Shown piece by piece: positions 3,392 to 13,990 of a DNA stretch of 31,117 nucleotides (positions are counted from its first letter, which is position 1; every line of letters begins with the position of its first letter). The notes beneath the pieces are model-generated. The model ran no database searches, was not told where the DNA came from, and saw only the letters and a list, made by a program, of their open reading frames with translations. The stretch comes from a virus (taxonomy: Duplodnaviria > Caudoviricetes): IMG/VR virus record IMGVR_UViG_3300037044_000084, positions 1-31,117 of that record, one strand, 5' to 3'. The position numbers were made by a program, and so were the translations under genes.

Positions 3392-3474
3392 TGGTGCGCG
3401 GGGCGGGAGTCGAACCCGCACCCCGAAGGACAGGATCCTAAGTCCTGCGCGTCTGCCAGTTCCGCCACCCGCGC
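3392..3474 (-). tRNA. tRNA-Leu (anticodon TAG)
   Basis: Acceptor stem GCGCGGG/CCCGCGC, anticodon arm CAGGA-CTTAGGA-TCCTG, variable arm, GGTTCGACTCC T-arm, discriminator A and encoded CCA. Confidence 0.97.
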
Positions 3475-3481
3475 AAATCGC

Positions 3482-4552
3482 TTATGTTGAATTAGTTATG
3501 GCTTGATTTTTGCTTCCCGAATCCGTGCCTTGGCTACGGTTTGGCACCGGTGCCAGCTCGGGATAGGCGTCGAGGCGGACGGACTCCGGGGAGTCGATGT
3601 AGTGCGTCGTCTGGGAGGCGTTGGTGTGGCCCATGACCGCCCGGAGGTCGTCGAGGGGAATGCCTGACCGGCGGGCGCGGGTCGCGAAGGTCGCCCGCAG
3701 GGAATGGTAGCCGACGCGGGAGACGCCGTCCTCCCCCGTCACCTTGGCGCGGGACAGGATGCGCGAGAATTCCGGGCCCAGGGTGCGGCGCCCTTGCTTT
3801 TCGACCGCTTCGGGGAACAGGCTGGCGGCAGGGCGCTTCAGCCTTTCCAGCTCGCGGCCCAGGGCGGGATGCACGGGGATCCAGACGGCGCGCCCGGACT
3901 TCATGGTCTTGGCCGGCCGCAGCTCGATGTGGCGCAGGCCCTCGCCGAACATCGACCAGCGGAGGGTGGCGGCGTCCGAGATCCGCAGGCCCGTGTAGAA
4001 CCCGACCAGGATCAGGGGCCGCCACCAGGGGGCGACCTTCGCGGCCTCGGCCAGGACGCGGACAACCTCGTCGTCGGTCAGTGGCCGGAAAGGGATCGTC
4101 TTGCGGGGGCGGGTGCGGCACTGTCCCCATGGATCCGGCAGGCCGACGGTCTTCCAGACGTGCGAGAGGACGCCGCGGGCGAGATTGGCCGTGCGCGGGG
4201 CCTTGGAGCGCATTGAATTGAGGTACTGCTCGGCCACGGCCTGGGTGACGCGCTCGGCGGTGGCCACCCGGGCCCAGCGGCAGAACAGGGAGAGGATGCG
4301 GTGGTACGACTCGACGGTCTGTGGCTTTAGGTCGGACGAGGAGAGGAAGGCGGGCCAGAGGTCGTCGAGCGGCATGGGCGGCGGGGTGGCGACGGCGCGG
4401 ATCACGTCCGGAAGGTTGCCGTAGCGGATGCGGGCCGCCCGGGCCTCGGCCTCGCGCCGGGATTCCGTGCGCAGGGAGATCCAGCGCTCCCGGCCCCCGG
4501 AGTAGAGGCGGATGTACCAGCTCGGGCGGTTGGGGCGGCGGAAGATGCCCAT
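3482..4552 (-). CDS. int: Tyrosine recombinase / phage integrase
   Basis: Catalytic motifs TGLRISD, K, HSLR, MGH and HY. N-terminal WYIRLY arm-binding-like segment. Start most likely ATG 4552 (ORF is open to 4603). Confidence 0.95.
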   Translation of the reverse strand: MGIFRRPNRPSWYIRLYSGGRERWISLRTESRREAEARAARIRYGNLPDVIRAVATPPPMPLDDLWPAFLSSSDLKPQTVESYHRILSLFCRWARVATAERVTQAVAEQYLNSMRSKAPRTANLARGVLSHVWKTVGLPDPWGQCRTRPRKTIPFRPLTDDEVVRVLAEAAKVAPWWRPLILVGFYTGLRISDAATLRWSMFGEGLRHIELRPAKTMKSGRAVWIPVHPALGRELERLKRPAASLFPEAVEKQGRRTLGPEFSRILSRAKVTGEDGVSRVGYHSLRATFATRARRSGIPLDDLRAVMGHTNASQTTHYIDSPESVRLDAYPELAPVPNRSQGTDSGSKNQAITNST

Positions 4553-4569
4553 GGAGGTTGACCCGGTGT

Positions 4570-4598
4570 TTGCAAATTCAATGGCTGACCGGTAAGTT
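4570..4598 (+). promoter_or_regulatory. Candidate sigma70 promoter for the 4635-5416 operon
   Basis: TTGCAA-N17-TAAGTT upstream of ATG 4635. Confidence 0.45.
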
Positions 4599-4634
4599 AC
4601 CATTGGGGAAGAGAAATGGAAAGGGCGAAAAAAA

Positions 4635-4877
4635 ATGAAGCTGAAGGCGGAATTCGAGTATTACCGCGCCCACCAGGCTGAGCTCGTGAAGCGATATGGC
4701 GGCAAAGTAATCGCCATCATCGGCGAGGAAGTCTTCGGCCCGTACGAGTCTGACCTCGCGGCCGTCAATGCCATGCTTGGGATGGGCAGAAAGCCCGGCA
4801 CGTTCTTTATCCAGAGGTGCGAGCCGGGCGAGGAGAACTACACCCAGCACTTCCGGTCCCGGGTGTCCTTCGCATGA
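4635..4877 (+). CDS. Small DUF5678-like protein
   Basis: EFEYYRAHQAELVKRYGGKVIAI pattern. Its stop overlaps the next ATG (ATGA). Confidence 0.7.
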   Translation: MKLKAEFEYYRAHQAELVKRYGGKVIAIIGEEVFGPYESDLAAVNAMLGMGRKPGTFFIQRCEPGEENYTQHFRSRVSFA

Positions 4878-5416
4878 GTCATGCCTTCACGGTCAACGGC
4901 AAGGGGCTGTTCAATGTCCTGAAGACGCCGGTGAAGGTGTCCCAGGCGTTCGATCCAAGGACAATGCCGGCCGACAAGCATCCGGAGTCCAGCGAGTTCA
5001 TCGCCATCTGGGACACCGGGGCAACGTCTTCCGTCATCACCGGAAATGTCGTCGCGGCGTGCGGGCTGGAGCCCGTCTCTGTGGTCATGGCCGAGCACGC
5101 GCAGGGCCGCCAACCGACCAACGTATACCTGGCCAACATCTTGCTCCCCTCCGGCGTGGGATTTTCCAGCCTGCGGGTCATCGAGGGAAAATTCTCCGGC
5201 GCGGATCTGCTGATCGGCATGGACATTATCAGTCGCGGAGATTTCGCCGTGACCAACAAGGACGGCGACACGACGTTCACCTTCAGAATCCCATCCGCAG
5301 ATCGGATTGACTTCGCCAAGAAGGCAGAGCCCTACAGGGCGGATACCATTCCGGCGCGTAACAGCCGATGCCCGTGCGGATCCGGGAAGAAGTATAAGCA
5401 GTGCTGCGGCAAGTAG
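4874..5416 (+). CDS. Retropepsin-like (clan AA) aspartyl protease with C-terminal SEC-C motif
   Basis: WDTGA catalytic motif, LLIGMDII motif and terminal RNSRCPCGSGKKYKQCCG. Confidence 0.88.
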   Translation: MSHAFTVNGKGLFNVLKTPVKVSQAFDPRTMPADKHPESSEFIAIWDTGATSSVITGNVVAACGLEPVSVVMAEHAQGRQPTNVYLANILLPSGVGFSSLRVIEGKFSGADLLIGMDIISRGDFAVTNKDGDTTFTFRIPSADRIDFAKKAEPYRADTIPARNSRCPCGSGKKYKQCCGK

Positions 5417-5585
5417 CCGCCCACATTATCGCACTGCGTGTATCCACCTTCCTTCCGACAACCACCGCCCCGCGAGGAAGCACCCCCACGAGGCCAGCAG
5501 CATGGATTCGGCCCCGGCGATGGCGAGAAGGCGGACGCCTGGAGGGTTGGCGGCCGTCGCCGCCCACATGCCCGGCGGCGCGGCA

Positions 5586-6188: not shown

Positions 6189-6248
6189 TTATCAACCCCA
6201 TATGCCGTTTTGGATGAAATCATTGCAAGCGGCATTGCCCCGACTTTT

Positions 6249-6617
6249 CTATTTTGGGTTCAGCAACGCCAGTTTCTTTTCAGGGGACAAGTCCGGATCG
6301 TCCATGATTGCCTGCTGGATGGCGACCAACCGCTCCAGCTGCCGGAGCGCCACCTCCGATTCGCGCGGAGCCTCCGCGATCGGGATGCGGCCGTGCGGAC
6401 TGATATGCGGCGTCAACGGGTCGGCTCGCATGTACGGACGAATTACCGGCTCAATACGCCCCCAGTTCGTTTTTCGGATGTTCTTGGATTTGCCGGACTC
6501 AATTCGCTCAATGGTGGCGTGAGACAGGCCAGTGCGCCGCCCAAGCTCTTCTTGGCTAAGCTTGAGCTTTTTCCTTGTTTCCTTTATTGCCGCCTGTATG
6601 TCCGGAGTGTTCCACAT
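6249..6617 (-). CDS. CI-like XRE-family HTH repressor without peptidase domain
   Basis: IKETRKKLKLSQEELGRRTGLSHATIERIESG. GGAGG SD upstream. Divergent from the early operon. Confidence 0.9.
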   Translation of the reverse strand: MWNTPDIQAAIKETRKKLKLSQEELGRRTGLSHATIERIESGKSKNIRKTNWGRIEPVIRPYMRADPLTPHISPHGRIPIAEAPRESEVALRQLERLVAIQQAIMDDPDLSPEKKLALLNPK

Positions 6618-6637
6618 AAAACACCCTCCATGCGTGT

Positions 6638-6666
6638 ATTTTACACCCTTTTTTTGAAAAAATCAA
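6638..6666 (-). promoter_or_regulatory. Leftward (repressor) sigma70 promoter
   Basis: On the minus strand TTGATT (6666-6661)-N17-TAAAAT (6643-6638). Confidence 0.7.
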
Positions 6667-6686
6667 GATTTTTCTTCGTTTGCACC

Positions 6687-6715
6687 TTGCAATGCCGGTA
6701 TCTGCACGTTATAAT
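6687..6715 (+). promoter_or_regulatory. Rightward early (lytic) sigma70 promoter
   Basis: TTGCAA (6687-6692)-N17-TATAAT (6710-6715). Confidence 0.8.
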
Positions 6716-6721
6716 GAGGGC

Positions 6722-6919
6722 ATGAAACAAAAGAGAAACTACCACATCGAGGCCGACCTGGGCCGCCAGATCGACCTGCTCGCCGAGGCTACGCCACTCA
6801 AGAAAGGGGCCATTGTGGAGGAGGCCCTGCGCCACGGACTGCCGCACGTGGCGAAAATTTTTTGCCGAGAAAAGAACGTTAGAACGTGCAATGCCCGCCG
6901 CAAAGGGAGGACCAAGTGA
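6722..6919 (+). CDS. Cro-position ribbon-helix-helix (Arc/CopG-like) DNA-binding protein
   Basis: Alternating strand KRNYHIE, helix ADLGRQIDLLAEAT, then KKGAIVEEALRHGL. First gene divergent from the repressor. Confidence 0.7.
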   Translation: MKQKRNYHIEADLGRQIDLLAEATPLKKGAIVEEALRHGLPHVAKIFCREKNVRTCNARRKGRTK

Positions 6920-7167
6920 ACTGCTGCTGCTGCTGCTGCAACTGCGCCGCCCGGGCCGCCGCCGCGACCGAGCGGACATATCAGGACGCGAGGGTCAGGG
7001 CGCTGTACGGGGCGATCCTCTTCGACCCGGAGCTGACCAATGAAAAGAAGGTCGGCCTGATCAAGGCGTCGTGGGAGATCAGCGACGGGGTGCGGCCATC
7101 GCAGGTGCATGTCCCCGTCGCGGACGCGCCGCCCCTCCCTCGCCGTCGCGCGGGAAAGCGAGGGTGA
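6916..7167 (+). CDS. Small poly-Cys protein sharing the repressor's C-terminal motif
   Basis: GGGAGG SD, GTG start overlapping the upstream stop (GTGA), sequence MNCCCCCCNC...AILFDPELTNEKKVGLI. Confidence 0.75.
   Translation: MNCCCCCCNCAARAAAATERTYQDARVRALYGAILFDPELTNEKKVGLIKASWEISDGVRPSQVHVPVADAPPLPRRRAGKRG
6922..6939 (+). repeat. (TGC)6 in-frame trinucleotide repeat
   Basis: Six consecutive TGC codons, read directly. Confidence 0.95.
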
Positions 7168-7258
7168 AATGAGCTGGGAACATTGGACGATTCTCGTGAC
7201 GCAGTGCTTTGGCCTGGGCCTGGTTGCCGGGATGGCGCTGAGCACGACGCAGATGGGG

Positions 7259-7660
7259 CTAAAGCTTGGCGAGGGCGTCCAGGACGCGATTGATGGCATC
7301 GGCCTGTGGGCAAGAAGGATCAACCCGATGCCCAATCGTCTGGGTGGCGGCGACAATGACGGCCAGGTCGGCGCGAATGACCTTGTTGGCAATGGCCCCG
7401 GATCCATCAATGGCCGCAAGCAGCTTGGCCTCGGAATCGCGGAGGCGCTTGAGGTCAATCATTTGGCCCCAACTGTTGGCGTAGACCAGCTTGAGATCGG
7501 AGAGCGCGGCAATGATGGCCTGGGCGGATGCGTGCCGCAGGCCTCGCTGGTAGATGTCAAGATTGAATCGATACCCCAGCCATACGCCGACCAGCGCCCC
7601 GAGCAGGAATCCCCCGGCGGCGCAACAGGCATGAGCCCAAAACGCAACGATCGCATTCAT
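7259..7660 (-). CDS. Antisense membrane-anchored protein (moron-like)
   Basis: 133 aa with N-terminal TM GGFLLGALVGVWLGY. An extended -10 (TGaTATATT) lies 6 nt upstream of the ATG. Confidence 0.65.
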   Translation of the reverse strand: MNAIVAFWAHACCAAGGFLLGALVGVWLGYRFNLDIYQRGLRHASAQAIIAALSDLKLVYANSWGQMIDLKRLRDSEAKLLAAIDGSGAIANKVIRADLAVIVAATQTIGHRVDPSCPQADAINRVLDALAKL

Positions 7661-7674
7661 GGGAGGAATATATC

Positions 7675-7971
7675 ATGAGATCGCGCGAAAGCTACAACAC
7701 GGCAGGGATGCTGGCTCGTCCACGCGGTCGGCAGGCGGGTGGGGTCGAGCGCGGGCTTGGGCGTCCGCAGGAGATCGCGGCGATCCCGCCCCGGCTGCTG
7801 ACGACGCAGGGGGTGGCGGGATACCTGGGGTGCAGCCGCAGCCAACTCTTCCGCCAGTCGATCCTGCTGACCATCCCGTACATCGCGATCGGTCGGCGCG
7901 AGTACTACGACGTGCGGGACATCGACAAGTGGGTCGACGAGCACAAGCAATTCACGATCCACCCCGAATAG
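7675..7971 (+). CDS. Excisionase-like winged-HTH protein
   Basis: LLTTQGVAGYLGCSRSQL...IPYIAIGRREYYDVRDIDKWV. GGGAGG SD. Confidence 0.8.
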   Translation: MRSRESYNTAGMLARPRGRQAGGVERGLGRPQEIAAIPPRLLTTQGVAGYLGCSRSQLFRQSILLTIPYIAIGRREYYDVRDIDKWVDEHKQFTIHPE

Positions 7972-11458: not shown

Positions 11459-11920
11459 GTGCGGATCGTCGTCGATACCCGAGAGCAGACGCCATGGACG
11501 TTCCCGGCCTGGGTGCAGGTCTCGCGCGGCACGCTGCCGACGGGAGACTATGCCCTGGCCGGGGACGGATGGGCGATCGAGCGGAAGAACCTCGACGACT
11601 TCCTCGGCACGGTCTCGACCGGCTGGGACAGGTTCTGCCGGGAGATCTCGCGGATGGACGGGTGGGCGGCGAAGGTCGTGGTCGTGGAGGCCGACTTCGC
11701 CGCCTGCTGCTTTTGCGAGACGCCGGACGGGATCGAGCCGCCGCGCCATTCGCATCCGATGCTGACGCCGCGCTTCGTGGCCTCGCGGATCGCCGAGCTG
11801 ACGATGATGGGGGTCTCCGTGCTGTTCGCCGGGGATCCCGGGCAGGCGGCGGCGCTCGCCTATCACCTGCTGAGGCGCCGGGAAATGGAACTGATGATGA
11901 AGGGAGGACAGGCAACATGA
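11459..11920 (+). CDS. ERCC4-domain nuclease
   Basis: IVVDTREQ, GDY and IERKNLDDF motifs. AAGGAGG SD. Confidence 0.9.
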   Translation: MRIVVDTREQTPWTFPAWVQVSRGTLPTGDYALAGDGWAIERKNLDDFLGTVSTGWDRFCREISRMDGWAAKVVVVEADFAACCFCETPDGIEPPRHSHPMLTPRFVASRIAELTMMGVSVLFAGDPGQAAALAYHLLRRREMELMMKGGQAT

Positions 11921-12813
11921 CCATGACGACGACGGCAGGGGCTGGGCGGGGCGCACAAGTCGAGCTGGCCGCGACGGTCGAGCGGGTGCTGTGCGCGAAG
12001 GAATCCGGCCCGCGCCGGGTGTGGATGATGCTCAAGACCCAGCACGGGATCGCCAAGGGCACGGCGGGCTGGGAGCCGAAGCCCGGCGAGCGGATCACGC
12101 TCAAGGGCGAATGGACAGTCTGGAACGGCGAGCGCCAGCTCAAGTTCGCCTCGATGGTTCCGGACATCCCGACGGACCCCCGCGCCAAGCTGCACTACGC
12201 CTGCGAGATCACGCCCGGCCTGGGCGAGGCGCTGGAGGAGAAGATCTGGGAGGCCCTGGGCGAGGACTGGGAGAAGATCGAGCCGGGCGACGTGAAGGGC
12301 GTCACCGAGGCGCGGTGCAAGGCGCTGCGCGAATCCCTGGAATACATCGCCGTGAACGCCGAGCAGGTGCGGACGGTCTCTTTCCTGATGGCGCACGGCG
12401 CGACCTTCCCGATGGCCGAGAAGGCCTGGGACAAGTGGCGGCAGGAGTCGGTGCCGATCGTCAAGGGCGACTGCTTCCGGCTGGCCGACCTGCCGCATTG
12501 CGGATTTCGCGACGTGGACACCCGCATCCGGGCGCACTTCGGGATCGGTGACAGCGACCCGCGCCGCACCCGCGCCGGCGTCGCCTATGCCCTGCGGCAG
12601 TGCCTTGAGGACGGCTCGACGACGTGCGGCTGGTTGCGTCTCCGCGACCAGGCCGTGAAGCTCCTGGGCGTGTCCCGGGCAATCATCATCGACGAGACGC
12701 GGCGGATGCTCGCCGACGGGCTGCTGGTCGGCTGGCGCGAGACGCTGGCCCTGGCCGACGCCCGGGCGCATGGGCATGAGTCCGCGATATGGGAGTTCAT
12801 CAATGCAGCTTAA
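11917..12813 (+). CDS. RecD2-like helicase, N-terminal non-catalytic half
   Basis: OB-like start, HhH-like PGLGEAL and LADLPHCGFRDVD...DPRRTRAGVAYAL, as in RecD2 N-termini. Confidence 0.75.
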   Translation: MTMTTTAGAGRGAQVELAATVERVLCAKESGPRRVWMMLKTQHGIAKGTAGWEPKPGERITLKGEWTVWNGERQLKFASMVPDIPTDPRAKLHYACEITPGLGEALEEKIWEALGEDWEKIEPGDVKGVTEARCKALRESLEYIAVNAEQVRTVSFLMAHGATFPMAEKAWDKWRQESVPIVKGDCFRLADLPHCGFRDVDTRIRAHFGIGDSDPRRTRAGVAYALRQCLEDGSTTCGWLRLRDQAVKLLGVSRAIIIDETRRMLADGLLVGWRETLALADARAHGHESAIWEFINAA

Positions 12814-13990
12814 TGACGACCAGCTCGCCGCGATCCGGCGGGCCAAGGGCCGACGCCTCTCCGTGATCAACGGCGGGGCGGGCACAGGCAAGACGACGGT
12901 GATCCGGGAGATCGTGCGCGAGATCGGCGGCAATTCACTGCTGTGCTGCCCGACCGGCAAGGCGGCGGCGCGGCTCCGTGAGGCCTCCGGCCTGGACGCC
13001 AGCACGATCCATTCCGCCCTCAAGTACAACGGCGAGGGATTCATGCTGAAGAGCCTGGCGGGCACGTCGCTCATCGTCGACGAGGCCAGCATGGTCGATT
13101 CCGAGCTGATGGCGGAGATTTGCCGACGCGGACCGGCCCGCCTGATCCTGGTCGGCGACGAGGCCCAGCTCATGCCGGTGGGCAACGGCGCTCCGTTCCA
13201 CGACCTGATCCGGCTGCGGCCTGATCTCGTATCCACGCTCAACCAGTGCTACCGCAACACCGAGGCCATCTTCAAGGCGGCCACGGCGATCCGCGCCGGC
13301 CAGGCTCCGCAGAAGTTCGACCAGTCCGCCGGGGAGCTCTGGCGGATCAACCATACCGGGCGGCCCGAGCCGACCCAGGAGATCATCGTGCGCTACTACA
13401 AGGAAGGGCAGGTCGACCCCGCCCAGGACATCGTGCTGGTCTGCCGCAACGGCGAGCGGGGCGACCCGGCCCCGGGCACCGTCCACGCCATCAACACGGC
13501 GGCGCTGGCGGCATTGGGATTTGATCCGGAGCCGCGCTGGCAACCCGGGCAGCGGATCATCTGCCTCAAGAACTTCGCCGCGCTCGACGTGTGGAACGGC
13601 ACGACCGGGACGATCACCGGCGTGAACAAGGACGGGGCCTGGGTGAAGGGCGACATCCCATTCCATGACGCCGAGCAGGATTGCATGGTCGACGAGATCC
13701 AATGGCCGTTGGAGGTATTGAGGTCGTGCCAGCACGCCTACGCCCTGACCGTCCACAAGTCCCAGGGCAGCCAGTACCGCAACGTGTTCTTCGCCTGCTT
13801 CTCGGCGGACGCGCACATGATGCTGTCCCGGCCGCTGATCTACACCGCCGTGACCCGGGCCCGGAAGAACTGCGTCGTGCTGGGCGACGCGCGGGCCTTC
13901 GCGGCCGGGATCGGGATCTGTCCGCAGAAGACGACCGTCCTCCAGGAGCTGGCCCGCGAGGCGGCGGCCGGGAAGGCGGTGGCGGCATGA
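12803..13990 (+). CDS. RecD2-like SF1B helicase, motor half
   Basis: GGAGTGKT, IVDEASM, LVGDEAQL, AYALTVHKSQGSQY and IYTAVTRAR. GGGAG SD before ATG 12803. Confidence 0.92.
   Translation: MQLNDDQLAAIRRAKGRRLSVINGGAGTGKTTVIREIVREIGGNSLLCCPTGKAAARLREASGLDASTIHSALKYNGEGFMLKSLAGTSLIVDEASMVDSELMAEICRRGPARLILVGDEAQLMPVGNGAPFHDLIRLRPDLVSTLNQCYRNTEAIFKAATAIRAGQAPQKFDQSAGELWRINHTGRPEPTQEIIVRYYKEGQVDPAQDIVLVCRNGERGDPAPGTVHAINTAALAALGFDPEPRWQPGQRIICLKNFAALDVWNGTTGTITGVNKDGAWVKGDIPFHDAEQDCMVDEIQWPLEVLRSCQHAYALTVHKSQGSQYRNVFFACFSADAHMMLSRPLIYTAVTRARKNCVVLGDARAFAAGIGICPQKTTVLQELAREAAAGKAVAA

What the first reader, a model, noticed from the sequence alone, without database searches (positions are those of the whole stretch)
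6249..7167. Early poly-Cys protein mimics the repressor's C-terminal domain: candidate SinI-like antirepressor switch
Seen: the repressor (6249-6617) ends RLVAIQQAIMDDPDLSPEKKLALL. The second gene of the divergent early operon (6916-7167) contains RVRALYGAILFDPELTNEKKVGLI. They share R-x-x-A-x3-AI-x2-DP-[DE]-L-[ST]-x-EKK-h-x-L with no gaps. The small protein has no HTH, and the repressor has no LexA/S24 autocleavage domain. Known: in Bacillus SinR/SinI, a small protein copies the XRE regulator's C-terminal oligomerisation helices and inactivates it by forming heterodimers. Inference: this prophage is induced or locked into lysis by a self-derived decoy of its repressor's oligomerisation hairpin, giving positive feedback independent of RecA cleavage.
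Basis: partly seen in the sequence, partly recalled or inferred. Interest (0 to 1): 0.82.

Follow-up and report, generated by a model that had tools for sequence, protein, structure and literature searches.

The report
Headless repressor-tail copy in a prophage
A prophage from groundwater carries a small early gene that repeats the two-helix tail of its own repressor but lacks the DNA-binding head, so it likely pairs with and disables the repressor to lock in the lytic cycle, though it was found in this phage only and binding is untested.

Summary
The 83-aa ORF (6916-7167) and the repressor tail match over 27 ungapped residues with 12 identical (0 of 20,000 shuffles). The ORF looks coding, and 7 of the 12 shared residues use different codons. 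Both segments are predicted as in-register helix-loop-helix. The repressor belongs to an unnamed Lentisphaeria XRE family with a C-terminal hairpin and no S24 domain; sister prophages carry the same HTH joined to S24. Some relatives carry Ant/Rha genes in the same second early slot.

Against this: the ORF has no homologue. None of 45 family loci showed a divergent headless copy. A larger family profile no longer recognises it. The AI..DP.L[ST].E.K motif is a generic helix cap in unrelated viral proteins.

Best reading (0.5): a SinI/AimX-like decoy. Because it sits inside the operon the repressor likely silences, it would be a commitment (feedback) element rather than the inducing trigger. The principle is published (AimX-AimC), and this scan noted similar mimics on other DNA. 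Verdict: new variant of a known kind, singleton, moderate interest.

The parts
6249..6617 (-). 122-aa XRE repressor: HTH (res. 5-62), disordered linker, C-terminal two-helix hairpin; no S24 domain
   Evidence: Pfam HTH_3 E 2e-9, no S24; AF2 helices 86-106 and 112-119 at pLDDT >90; Lentisphaeria family
6261..6341 (-). Repressor tail segment (res. 93-119) that matches the small ORF
   Evidence: family profile built without window proteins scores it E 1e-4 in the window
6634..6646 (.). Candidate operator O1, palindrome GTGTA-N3-TACAC over the -10 of the leftward promoter-like site
   Evidence: TGYA-N3-TRCA occurs exactly twice in 31 kb, both in this intergenic gap; motif chosen after looking; 36 of 3000 shuffles give two like palindromes
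6638..6666 (-). Promoter-like site towards the repressor (TTGATT-17-TAAAAT)
   Evidence: consensus match only
6680..6692 (.). Candidate operator O2, palindrome TTGCA-N3-TGCAA over the early -35
6687..6715 (+). Early promoter-like site (TTGCAA-17-TATAAT)
   Evidence: 10 of 12 matches
6702..6714 (.). Candidate operator O3 (one mismatch) over the early -10
6722..6919 (+). First early gene, 65 aa, Cro-position protein; possibly ribbon-helix-helix (weak)
   Evidence: best coding frame; NCBIfam RelB-like E 0.046; no support from a profile of 20 first-slot proteins of relatives, E 0.51
6879..6891 (.). Candidate operator O4 (two mismatches), 25 nt before the small ORF
   Evidence: weak
6905..6910 (+). 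Ribosome-binding-like GGGAGG, 5 nt before the GTG that overlaps the previous stop (GTGA)
   Evidence: sequence
6916..7167 (+). 83-aa second early ORF: Cys-rich N-terminus, helix-loop-helix copy of the repressor tail, Pro/Arg-rich unstructured end; candidate decoy antirepressor
   Evidence: no homologue
6922..6945 (+). Cys cluster (six TGC codons plus one more Cys; 7 Cys in the first 10 residues)
   Evidence: same in contigs of two other runs
6982..7062 (+). ORF residues 23-49, the tail-like segment
   Evidence: AF2 single-sequence helices 6-35 and 42-55, pLDDT about 80 at residues 31-50
3392..4603 (-). Context: tRNA-Leu (3392-3474) and tyrosine integrase (3482-4603), left end of the prophage

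Best explanation
The 83-aa early protein carries a headless copy of the prophage repressor's two-helix tail and likely acts as a decoy antirepressor that pairs with repressor monomers through that tail and blocks the dimers needed to hold the operators. Shown: both genes, the ungapped match, the divergent switch layout, the missing S24 domain. Predicted: the helix-loop-helix fold of both segments. Inferred: the tail is the dimerisation module (by analogy with SinR and AimC); the repressor binds the 13-bp palindromes over both promoters; the decoy is made only once the early promoter fires, so it gives positive feedback that commits the phage to lysis after infection or after a leak, and is not the first trigger of induction. 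The signal that induces this prophage was not identified.
For: Match beyond chance for this pair. Protein-level conservation: 7 of 12 identical residues use different codons, nucleotide identity 40/72. The ORF is the best of six frames by codon usage and has an RBS and stop-start overlap. AF2 places the helix break in register in both proteins. SinR (1b0n_A) is one of the few solved chains that Foldseek aligns across both domains of the repressor model, 111 columns, though at E 0.03 and rmsd 9 A. The tail is a conserved domain of a Lentisphaeria XRE family; a 15-sequence family profile without window proteins ranks the ORF second of 645 segments, E 0.037. Among 57 tails the ORF scores best with its own repressor (53 against 44) and vice versa (53 against 49) (biased by how the finding was picked). 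Two sister prophages have Bro-N or P22_AR_N 'Ant' genes in this slot (L118, L158), as do 3 of 22 hairpin-family switches if the Rha-like gene is counted. Sister repressors with the same HTH (42% over 66 aa, 36% over 58 aa) carry S24 instead. Mechanistic precedent: SinI-SinR (PMC3163267 passages) and AimX-AimC (bioRxiv 10.1101/2025.11.23.689978 sections 9-11).
Against: Singleton: no homologue of the ORF in 5.8 billion proteins, IMG/VR or the Atlas. Of 45 family loci with at least 1 kb upstream, 39 have no own-tail match above 36, five have tandem HTH-bearing paralogues on the same strand, one (score 39, same strand) was not inspected, and profile scans of these loci list no divergent headless copy. 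None of 9 repressors from integrase- or ERCC4-related elements has a mimic. A 56-sequence family profile drops the ORF out of the top five of 645, and hhalign of the family profile gives only E 0.005, probability 7%. The motif is a generic helix cap: of 17 IMG/VR matches, 2 look like HTH proteins by eye, none has a second copy nearby, and unrelated proteins score up to 55 with the repressor tail and 50 with the ORF. An unrelated XRE protein (P0076) scores 54 with the ORF, as high as the own repressor. 19 of 22 second-slot genes are not Ant-like, so position is weak evidence. That the tail dimerises is not shown for this family.
Confidence: 0.5

Rival explanations
1. The match is coincidence or convergence on a common helix-cap motif; the ORF is a small Cys-rich early protein, likely metal-binding, with a job unrelated to the repressor.
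For: Motif found in 15 of 17 IMG/VR proteins with no visible HTH, mostly long virion-type proteins; larger family profile does not recognise the ORF; no second phage with the arrangement; the scan reads very many prophages, so rare coincidences get picked.
Against: Per-pair chance about 1e-4; the match lies two genes from the repressor, covers exactly the family tail and is in helical register.
Confidence: 0.2
2. The ORF is a true tail homologue and binds, but its target or effect differs: it would disable a host XRE regulator or a co-resident prophage's repressor of the same family, or modulate its own repressor as a co-factor (SlrR- or MOR-like) without switching it off.
For: The tail family is found in 56 of 351 Lentisphaeria genomes at E<=0.05, often as tandem paralogues with different HTHs; P0076 matches as well as the own repressor; TP901-1 MOR acts as antirepressor and co-repressor (PMC11323111 passages, PMC7250872 abstract); trans-acting antirepressors are known (PMC3121763, listing and abstract start only).
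Against: Among the 57 family tails the own repressor is the best match; a headless partner cannot add DNA specificity as SlrR or MOR do.
Confidence: 0.17
3. The ORF is a leftover of a duplicated repressor gene that lost its head and has no current role in the switch.
For: Tandem paralogues and near-exact duplications of repressor 3' ends occur in family loci (L095, L073).
Against: Those fragments are near-identical DNA lying downstream on the same strand; this copy is inverted, 56% identical in DNA yet conserved in protein, with an intact frame, RBS and host-like codons.
Confidence: 0.13

Closest known systems
AimX-AimC-AimL of extended arbitrium systems in Bacillus phages (bioRxiv 10.1101/2025.11.23.689978; abstract and sections 9, 10, 11 read)
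   Same: [quoted passage not shown]
   Different: AimX lies beside aimP/aimC under AimR (and sometimes LexA) control and is the trigger; here the gene is second in the early operon, with no arbitrium genes seen among the ORFs scanned and no LexA-type box matched. AimX binding is shown by two-hybrid, SEC-MALS and EMSA; here nothing is shown.
SinI-SinR of Bacillus subtilis (PMC3163267, passages read; PDB 1b0n)
   Same: XRE HTH, flexible linker, two-helix C-terminal module; headless partner sharing the apolar pattern of that module.
   Different: Chromosomal biofilm switch; no Pfam SinI hit for any of 49 family tails and no sequence match to solved SinR/SinI chains; the second helix of this repressor is shorter; the partner bears a Cys cluster.
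TP901-1 CI-MOR switch (PMC7250872 abstract; PMC11323111 passages)
   Same: Antirepressor transcribed from the lytic promoter that the repressor controls, giving a bistable switch.
   Different: MOR is the first early gene, has an HTH and needs DNA binding; the candidate here is second and headless.
P22 arc-ant layout and Bro-N/P22_AR_N 'Ant' genes (P22 layout recalled, not from a call)
   Same: Small Arc-like gene followed by an antirepressor-class gene; sister prophages L118 and L158 have this order.
   Different: The ORF has no Bro-N, P22_AR_N or Rha domain; many 'Ant' labels are annotation by homology, not tested function.

Membership tests
SinI-type decoy antirepressor (works like) | Repressor = XRE HTH plus C-terminal two-helix module | tested here: met
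   (predicted structure)
SinI-type decoy antirepressor (works like) | Small partner without HTH that shares sequence and helical pattern with the module | tested here: met
SinI-type decoy antirepressor (works like) | The match reflects common origin or selected mimicry, conserved in relatives | tested here: inconclusive
   for; against:
SinI-type decoy antirepressor (works like) | Module homodimerises; partner forms a heterodimer and relieves repression | not testable with these tools
   needs two-hybrid, SEC-MALS, EMSA or a reporter
SinI/SinR family (membership by sequence) | Match to the SinI dimerisation domain family or to solved SinR/SinI chains | tested here: not met
AimX-AimC-AimL extended arbitrium module | aimR and aimP upstream, aimX downstream of aimP and next to aimC | tested here: not met
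   genes around the repressor are a Zn-ribbon membrane protein, an aspartyl-protease/SEC-C protein and the integrase; the ORF is in the early operon
LexA-controlled antirepressor | LexA box upstream of the antirepressor gene | tested here: inconclusive
   four recalled LexA consensus types gave no convincing match in 6201-7300 (one two-mismatch site at 6608, one one-mismatch site inside the repressor gene); the host's LexA motif is unknown
Lambda CI/LexA self-cleaving repressor | Peptidase S24 domain | tested here: not met
   present in sisters L158, L155, L159
ImmR/ImmA protease-cleaved repressor | Adjacent HExxH metallopeptidase | tested here: not met
   no HExxH in the four neighbouring ORFs checked; the right end of the prophage is missing from the contig
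Bro-N / P22_AR_N / Rha 'Ant' proteins | Bro-N, P22_AR_N or Rha domain | tested here: not met

The most novel reading that the evidence does not exclude
A young, self-derived decoy whose seven-cysteine N-terminus gates its activity by thiol redox state or metal binding, giving a prophage whose repressor cannot self-cleave a stress-sensing, RecA-independent feedback switch built from the repressor's own dimerisation hairpin and dropped into the slot where sister phages keep Ant.
Probability: 0.1. Interest if true: 0.75.

Novelty: new variant of a known kind. Interest (0 to 1): 0.42.

Why it matters
Many temperate phages have short repressors without a self-cleavage domain, and how they leave lysogeny is mostly unknown. 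If the decoy reading holds, this extends tail-mimic antirepressors from Bacillus to the Lentisphaeria. It would also show a different wiring: the mimic inside the lytic operon as a commitment loop rather than as the signal-controlled trigger. The 1 kb switch (6249-7167) is small enough to test in a laboratory reporter strain. Separately, the work outlines an unnamed family of Lentisphaeria hairpin-tail repressors facing small Cro-position genes. Three literature searches listed no paper on it, judged from titles and abstract starts only.

Tried and rejected
Complex prediction of repressor tail (49-row alignment) with ORF residues 12-60 gave no verdict: score 0.25, mark 0.32, controls not folded.

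Sequencing runs: no RNA holder listed. Five small-share runs (X5-X9) were not used for habitat.

No homologues of the ORF by word-indexed protein search, IMG/VR or the Atlas, and one weak chance-level hit among 50,697 phage records. No close relatives of the repressor or integrase in IMG/VR (L001 was a tape-measure gene). The one metagenome scan, with P0056, returned an irrelevant locus, so P0056's neighbourhood stayed unseen. The family profile found nothing in 5 of the 16 ERCC4-related viral records searched whole.

A second stand-alone copy was considered in a Mu-like early operon (L071/L112, 58 aa, E 4e-4 per genome among 351 genomes). It was not accepted: it has an N-terminal membrane helix, a weak Rz-like PHROG hit, and no repressor on its contig. 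The other short-frame hits inspected (L072, L073, L095, L058) look like repressor 3'-end fragments or contig edges, and L074 overlaps another gene.

The ribbon-helix-helix call for the first early gene got no profile support. No second att copy of the tRNA was found (the contig ends in structural genes). No Rfam match near the switch other than the tRNA. The host could not be pinned down: a flanking MFS gene matched only at 21-35% in 4 of 5 genomes tried; Lentisphaeria is inferred from where the prophage's relatives lie. A second 7-residue likeness (IPIAEAP/VPVADAP, E 0.096, order swapped) was left aside as weak.

Rows left out: P0076 and L089 were not in the 56-tail set; P0076 was scored afterwards. 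How many of the 45 family loci are intact prophages was not established. Supplements of the bioRxiv preprint (AimX alignments and models) were not seen and may hold further mimic examples.

Full report
Setting. The window is one 31,117-base record. Host-type transporter genes are followed by tRNA-Leu (3392-3474), a tyrosine integrase, a leftward repressor operon, a rightward early and replication region, then terminase, capsid and further late genes, cut off at the right end. It is a prophage. Its relatives lie in genomes of the class of Victivallis vadensis, so a Lentisphaeria host is inferred, not shown.

The observation. The two quoted segments are there and align without gaps: 12 of 27 identical. 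The score of 53 is reached by 0 of 20,000 shuffles and is the best non-self score among 645 six-frame segments of the window. Among all pairs of 35 picked genes it is the best pair, but only at E 0.02. In 1.36 million residues of six-frame sequence from related loci, 1 of 22,343 segments reaches 53 with either query; that background is mostly non-coding and so understates chance among real helical proteins. The ORF has an RBS and overlaps the previous stop. Its frame is the best of six by codon usage, most clearly over the hairpin, and 7 of the 12 shared residues use different codons. Contigs from three other runs repeat the DNA without differences. The repressor has no S24 domain and the ORF has no family hit.

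The repressor. A full HMMER search gave five proteins that align from the HTH through the tail; four were used to seed profiles. These found the HTH subfamily in 171 and the tail in 56 of 351 Lentisphaeria genomes. The tail consensus is a two-helix hairpin at the C-terminus after a low-complexity linker. AlphaFold2 with 49 sequences models an HTH, a disordered linker and helices 86-106 and 112-119 at pLDDT above 90. [quoted passage not shown] No family tail matches Pfam SinI or a solved SinR chain by sequence, so this is shared architecture, not family membership. Sister prophages that share the replication genes carry the same HTH joined to S24 (L158, L155). The intergenic gap holds two back-to-back promoter-like sites overlapped by 13-bp palindromes; the exact pattern occurs twice in the window, both times here (motif chosen after looking, 36 of 3000 shuffles).

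The small ORF. Folded alone it gives helices 6-35 and 42-55, with the break in register with the repressor's (mean pLDDT 60, about 80 over the hairpin). A 15-sequence family profile without window proteins ranked it second in the window (E 0.037), but a 56-sequence profile did not place it in the top five, and hhalign gave E 0.005 at 7% probability. Its best match among 57 tails is its own repressor, yet an unrelated XRE protein left out of that set scores as high (54). Exact-motif scans of IMG/VR gave 17 loci; 2 look like HTH proteins by eye, most are long unrelated proteins, and none has a second copy nearby. The motif is therefore a common helix cap, which keeps coincidence alive.

Relatives. 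It could not be shown. The ORF has no homologue. Of 50 family loci, 45 had at least 1 kb upstream; 39 had no own-tail match above 36, five had tandem HTH-bearing paralogues, one same-strand score of 39 was not inspected, and profile scans listed no divergent headless copy. None of 9 repressors from integrase- or ERCC4-related elements had a mimic, and a 401-genome phylum sample added none. The second early slot is variable: Bro-N in the nearest sister L118, P22_AR_N in L158, and Ant- or Rha-like genes in 3 of 22 hairpin-family switches. This is mild positional support only. It also shows that most hairpin repressors work without such a gene.

Mechanism. The most likely reading (0.5) is a SinI/AimX-like decoy. 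Shown are the genes, the match and the layout; predicted are the folds; inferred are tail dimerisation, operator binding and heterodimer formation. Because the gene follows the promoter that the repressor is inferred to shut, it cannot be made in a tightly repressed lysogen. It would act as positive feedback at infection or after a first leak, like MOR of TP901-1 in position (PMC7250872 abstract, PMC11323111 passages) but like SinI in mechanism (PMC3163267 passages). What starts induction is open: no LexA-type box of four recalled kinds and no HExxH protease were found nearby. Rivals are coincidence (0.2), a true homologue with another target or a modulating role (0.17), and a relic (0.13).

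Novelty. Tail-occupying small antirepressors in phages are in print: AimX binds the AimC oligomerisation domain and the authors liken it to SinI (bioRxiv 10.1101/2025.11.23.689978, abstract and sections 9-11; supplements not seen). Earlier notes of this scan report similar mimics in other genomes (unchecked here, they gave the lead to the papers), and none covers this sequence or record. New here are the host group, the unnamed repressor family, the position inside the lytic operon and the Cys cluster. With no conserved second example and no binding evidence, interest is 0.42. The boldest reading not excluded, a thiol- or metal-gated decoy, has probability about 0.1 and would deserve about 0.75.

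Noticed in passing
window 5440-5580 (minus), protein P0056: A hydrophobic reading frame after the Zn-ribbon gene matches, almost letter for letter, the C-terminal extension of the related repressor P0056; likely a small membrane gene of the immunity operon, truncated here. No Rfam or phage-record match.
   Followed up: partly
L095:1225-1314 and 2447-2510; L073:32-160 and 1067-1249; L072:2426-2632: Near-exact DNA duplications of a family repressor's last 20 or so codons lie about 1 kb downstream with a cargo gene between, suggesting that the repressor's 3' end serves as a site for cassette gain.
   Followed up: partly
L091 (G297:C39), L092 (G172:C63), L093 (G329:C1), L094 (G167:C222), L065: Tandem clusters of two or three hairpin-tail repressors with different HTHs; they could form mixed dimers in the manner of SinR-SlrR.
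   Followed up: partly
family loci, e.g. L056, L078, L099, L101, L107, L108: A recurring Lentisphaeria switch: hairpin-tail XRE repressor facing a 50-65 aa Arc-like gene (strand-helix-helix pattern by eye; mostly no PHROG hit), with a variable second gene.
   Followed up: partly
L158:5044-5763, L155:9856-10569 versus window 6249-6617: The same HTH subfamily is joined to S24 in sister prophages and to the hairpin here: C-terminal domain swapping among repressors.
   Followed up: partly
window 4635-5416 (+): An 80-aa gene and a retropepsin-like aspartyl protease with a C-terminal SEC-C motif sit between integrase and repressor operon, on the opposite strand; a protease this close to a non-self-cleaving repressor could be a candidate inducer, untested.
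   Followed up: no
window 7259-7660 (-) and 7170-7678 (+): A 133-aa predicted membrane protein gene lies antisense within the early operon, overlapping a plus-strand frame that starts right after the candidate decoy.
   Followed up: no
window 11917-13990: RecD2-like helicase split into two overlapping genes (HHH part and ATPase part); the same split is in L118.
   Followed up: no
L112 (G105:C91): Mu-like prophage early region in a Lentisphaeria genome (transposase A and B, Gam) with a 58-aa membrane-anchored ORF that weakly matches the tail profile.
   Followed up: partly
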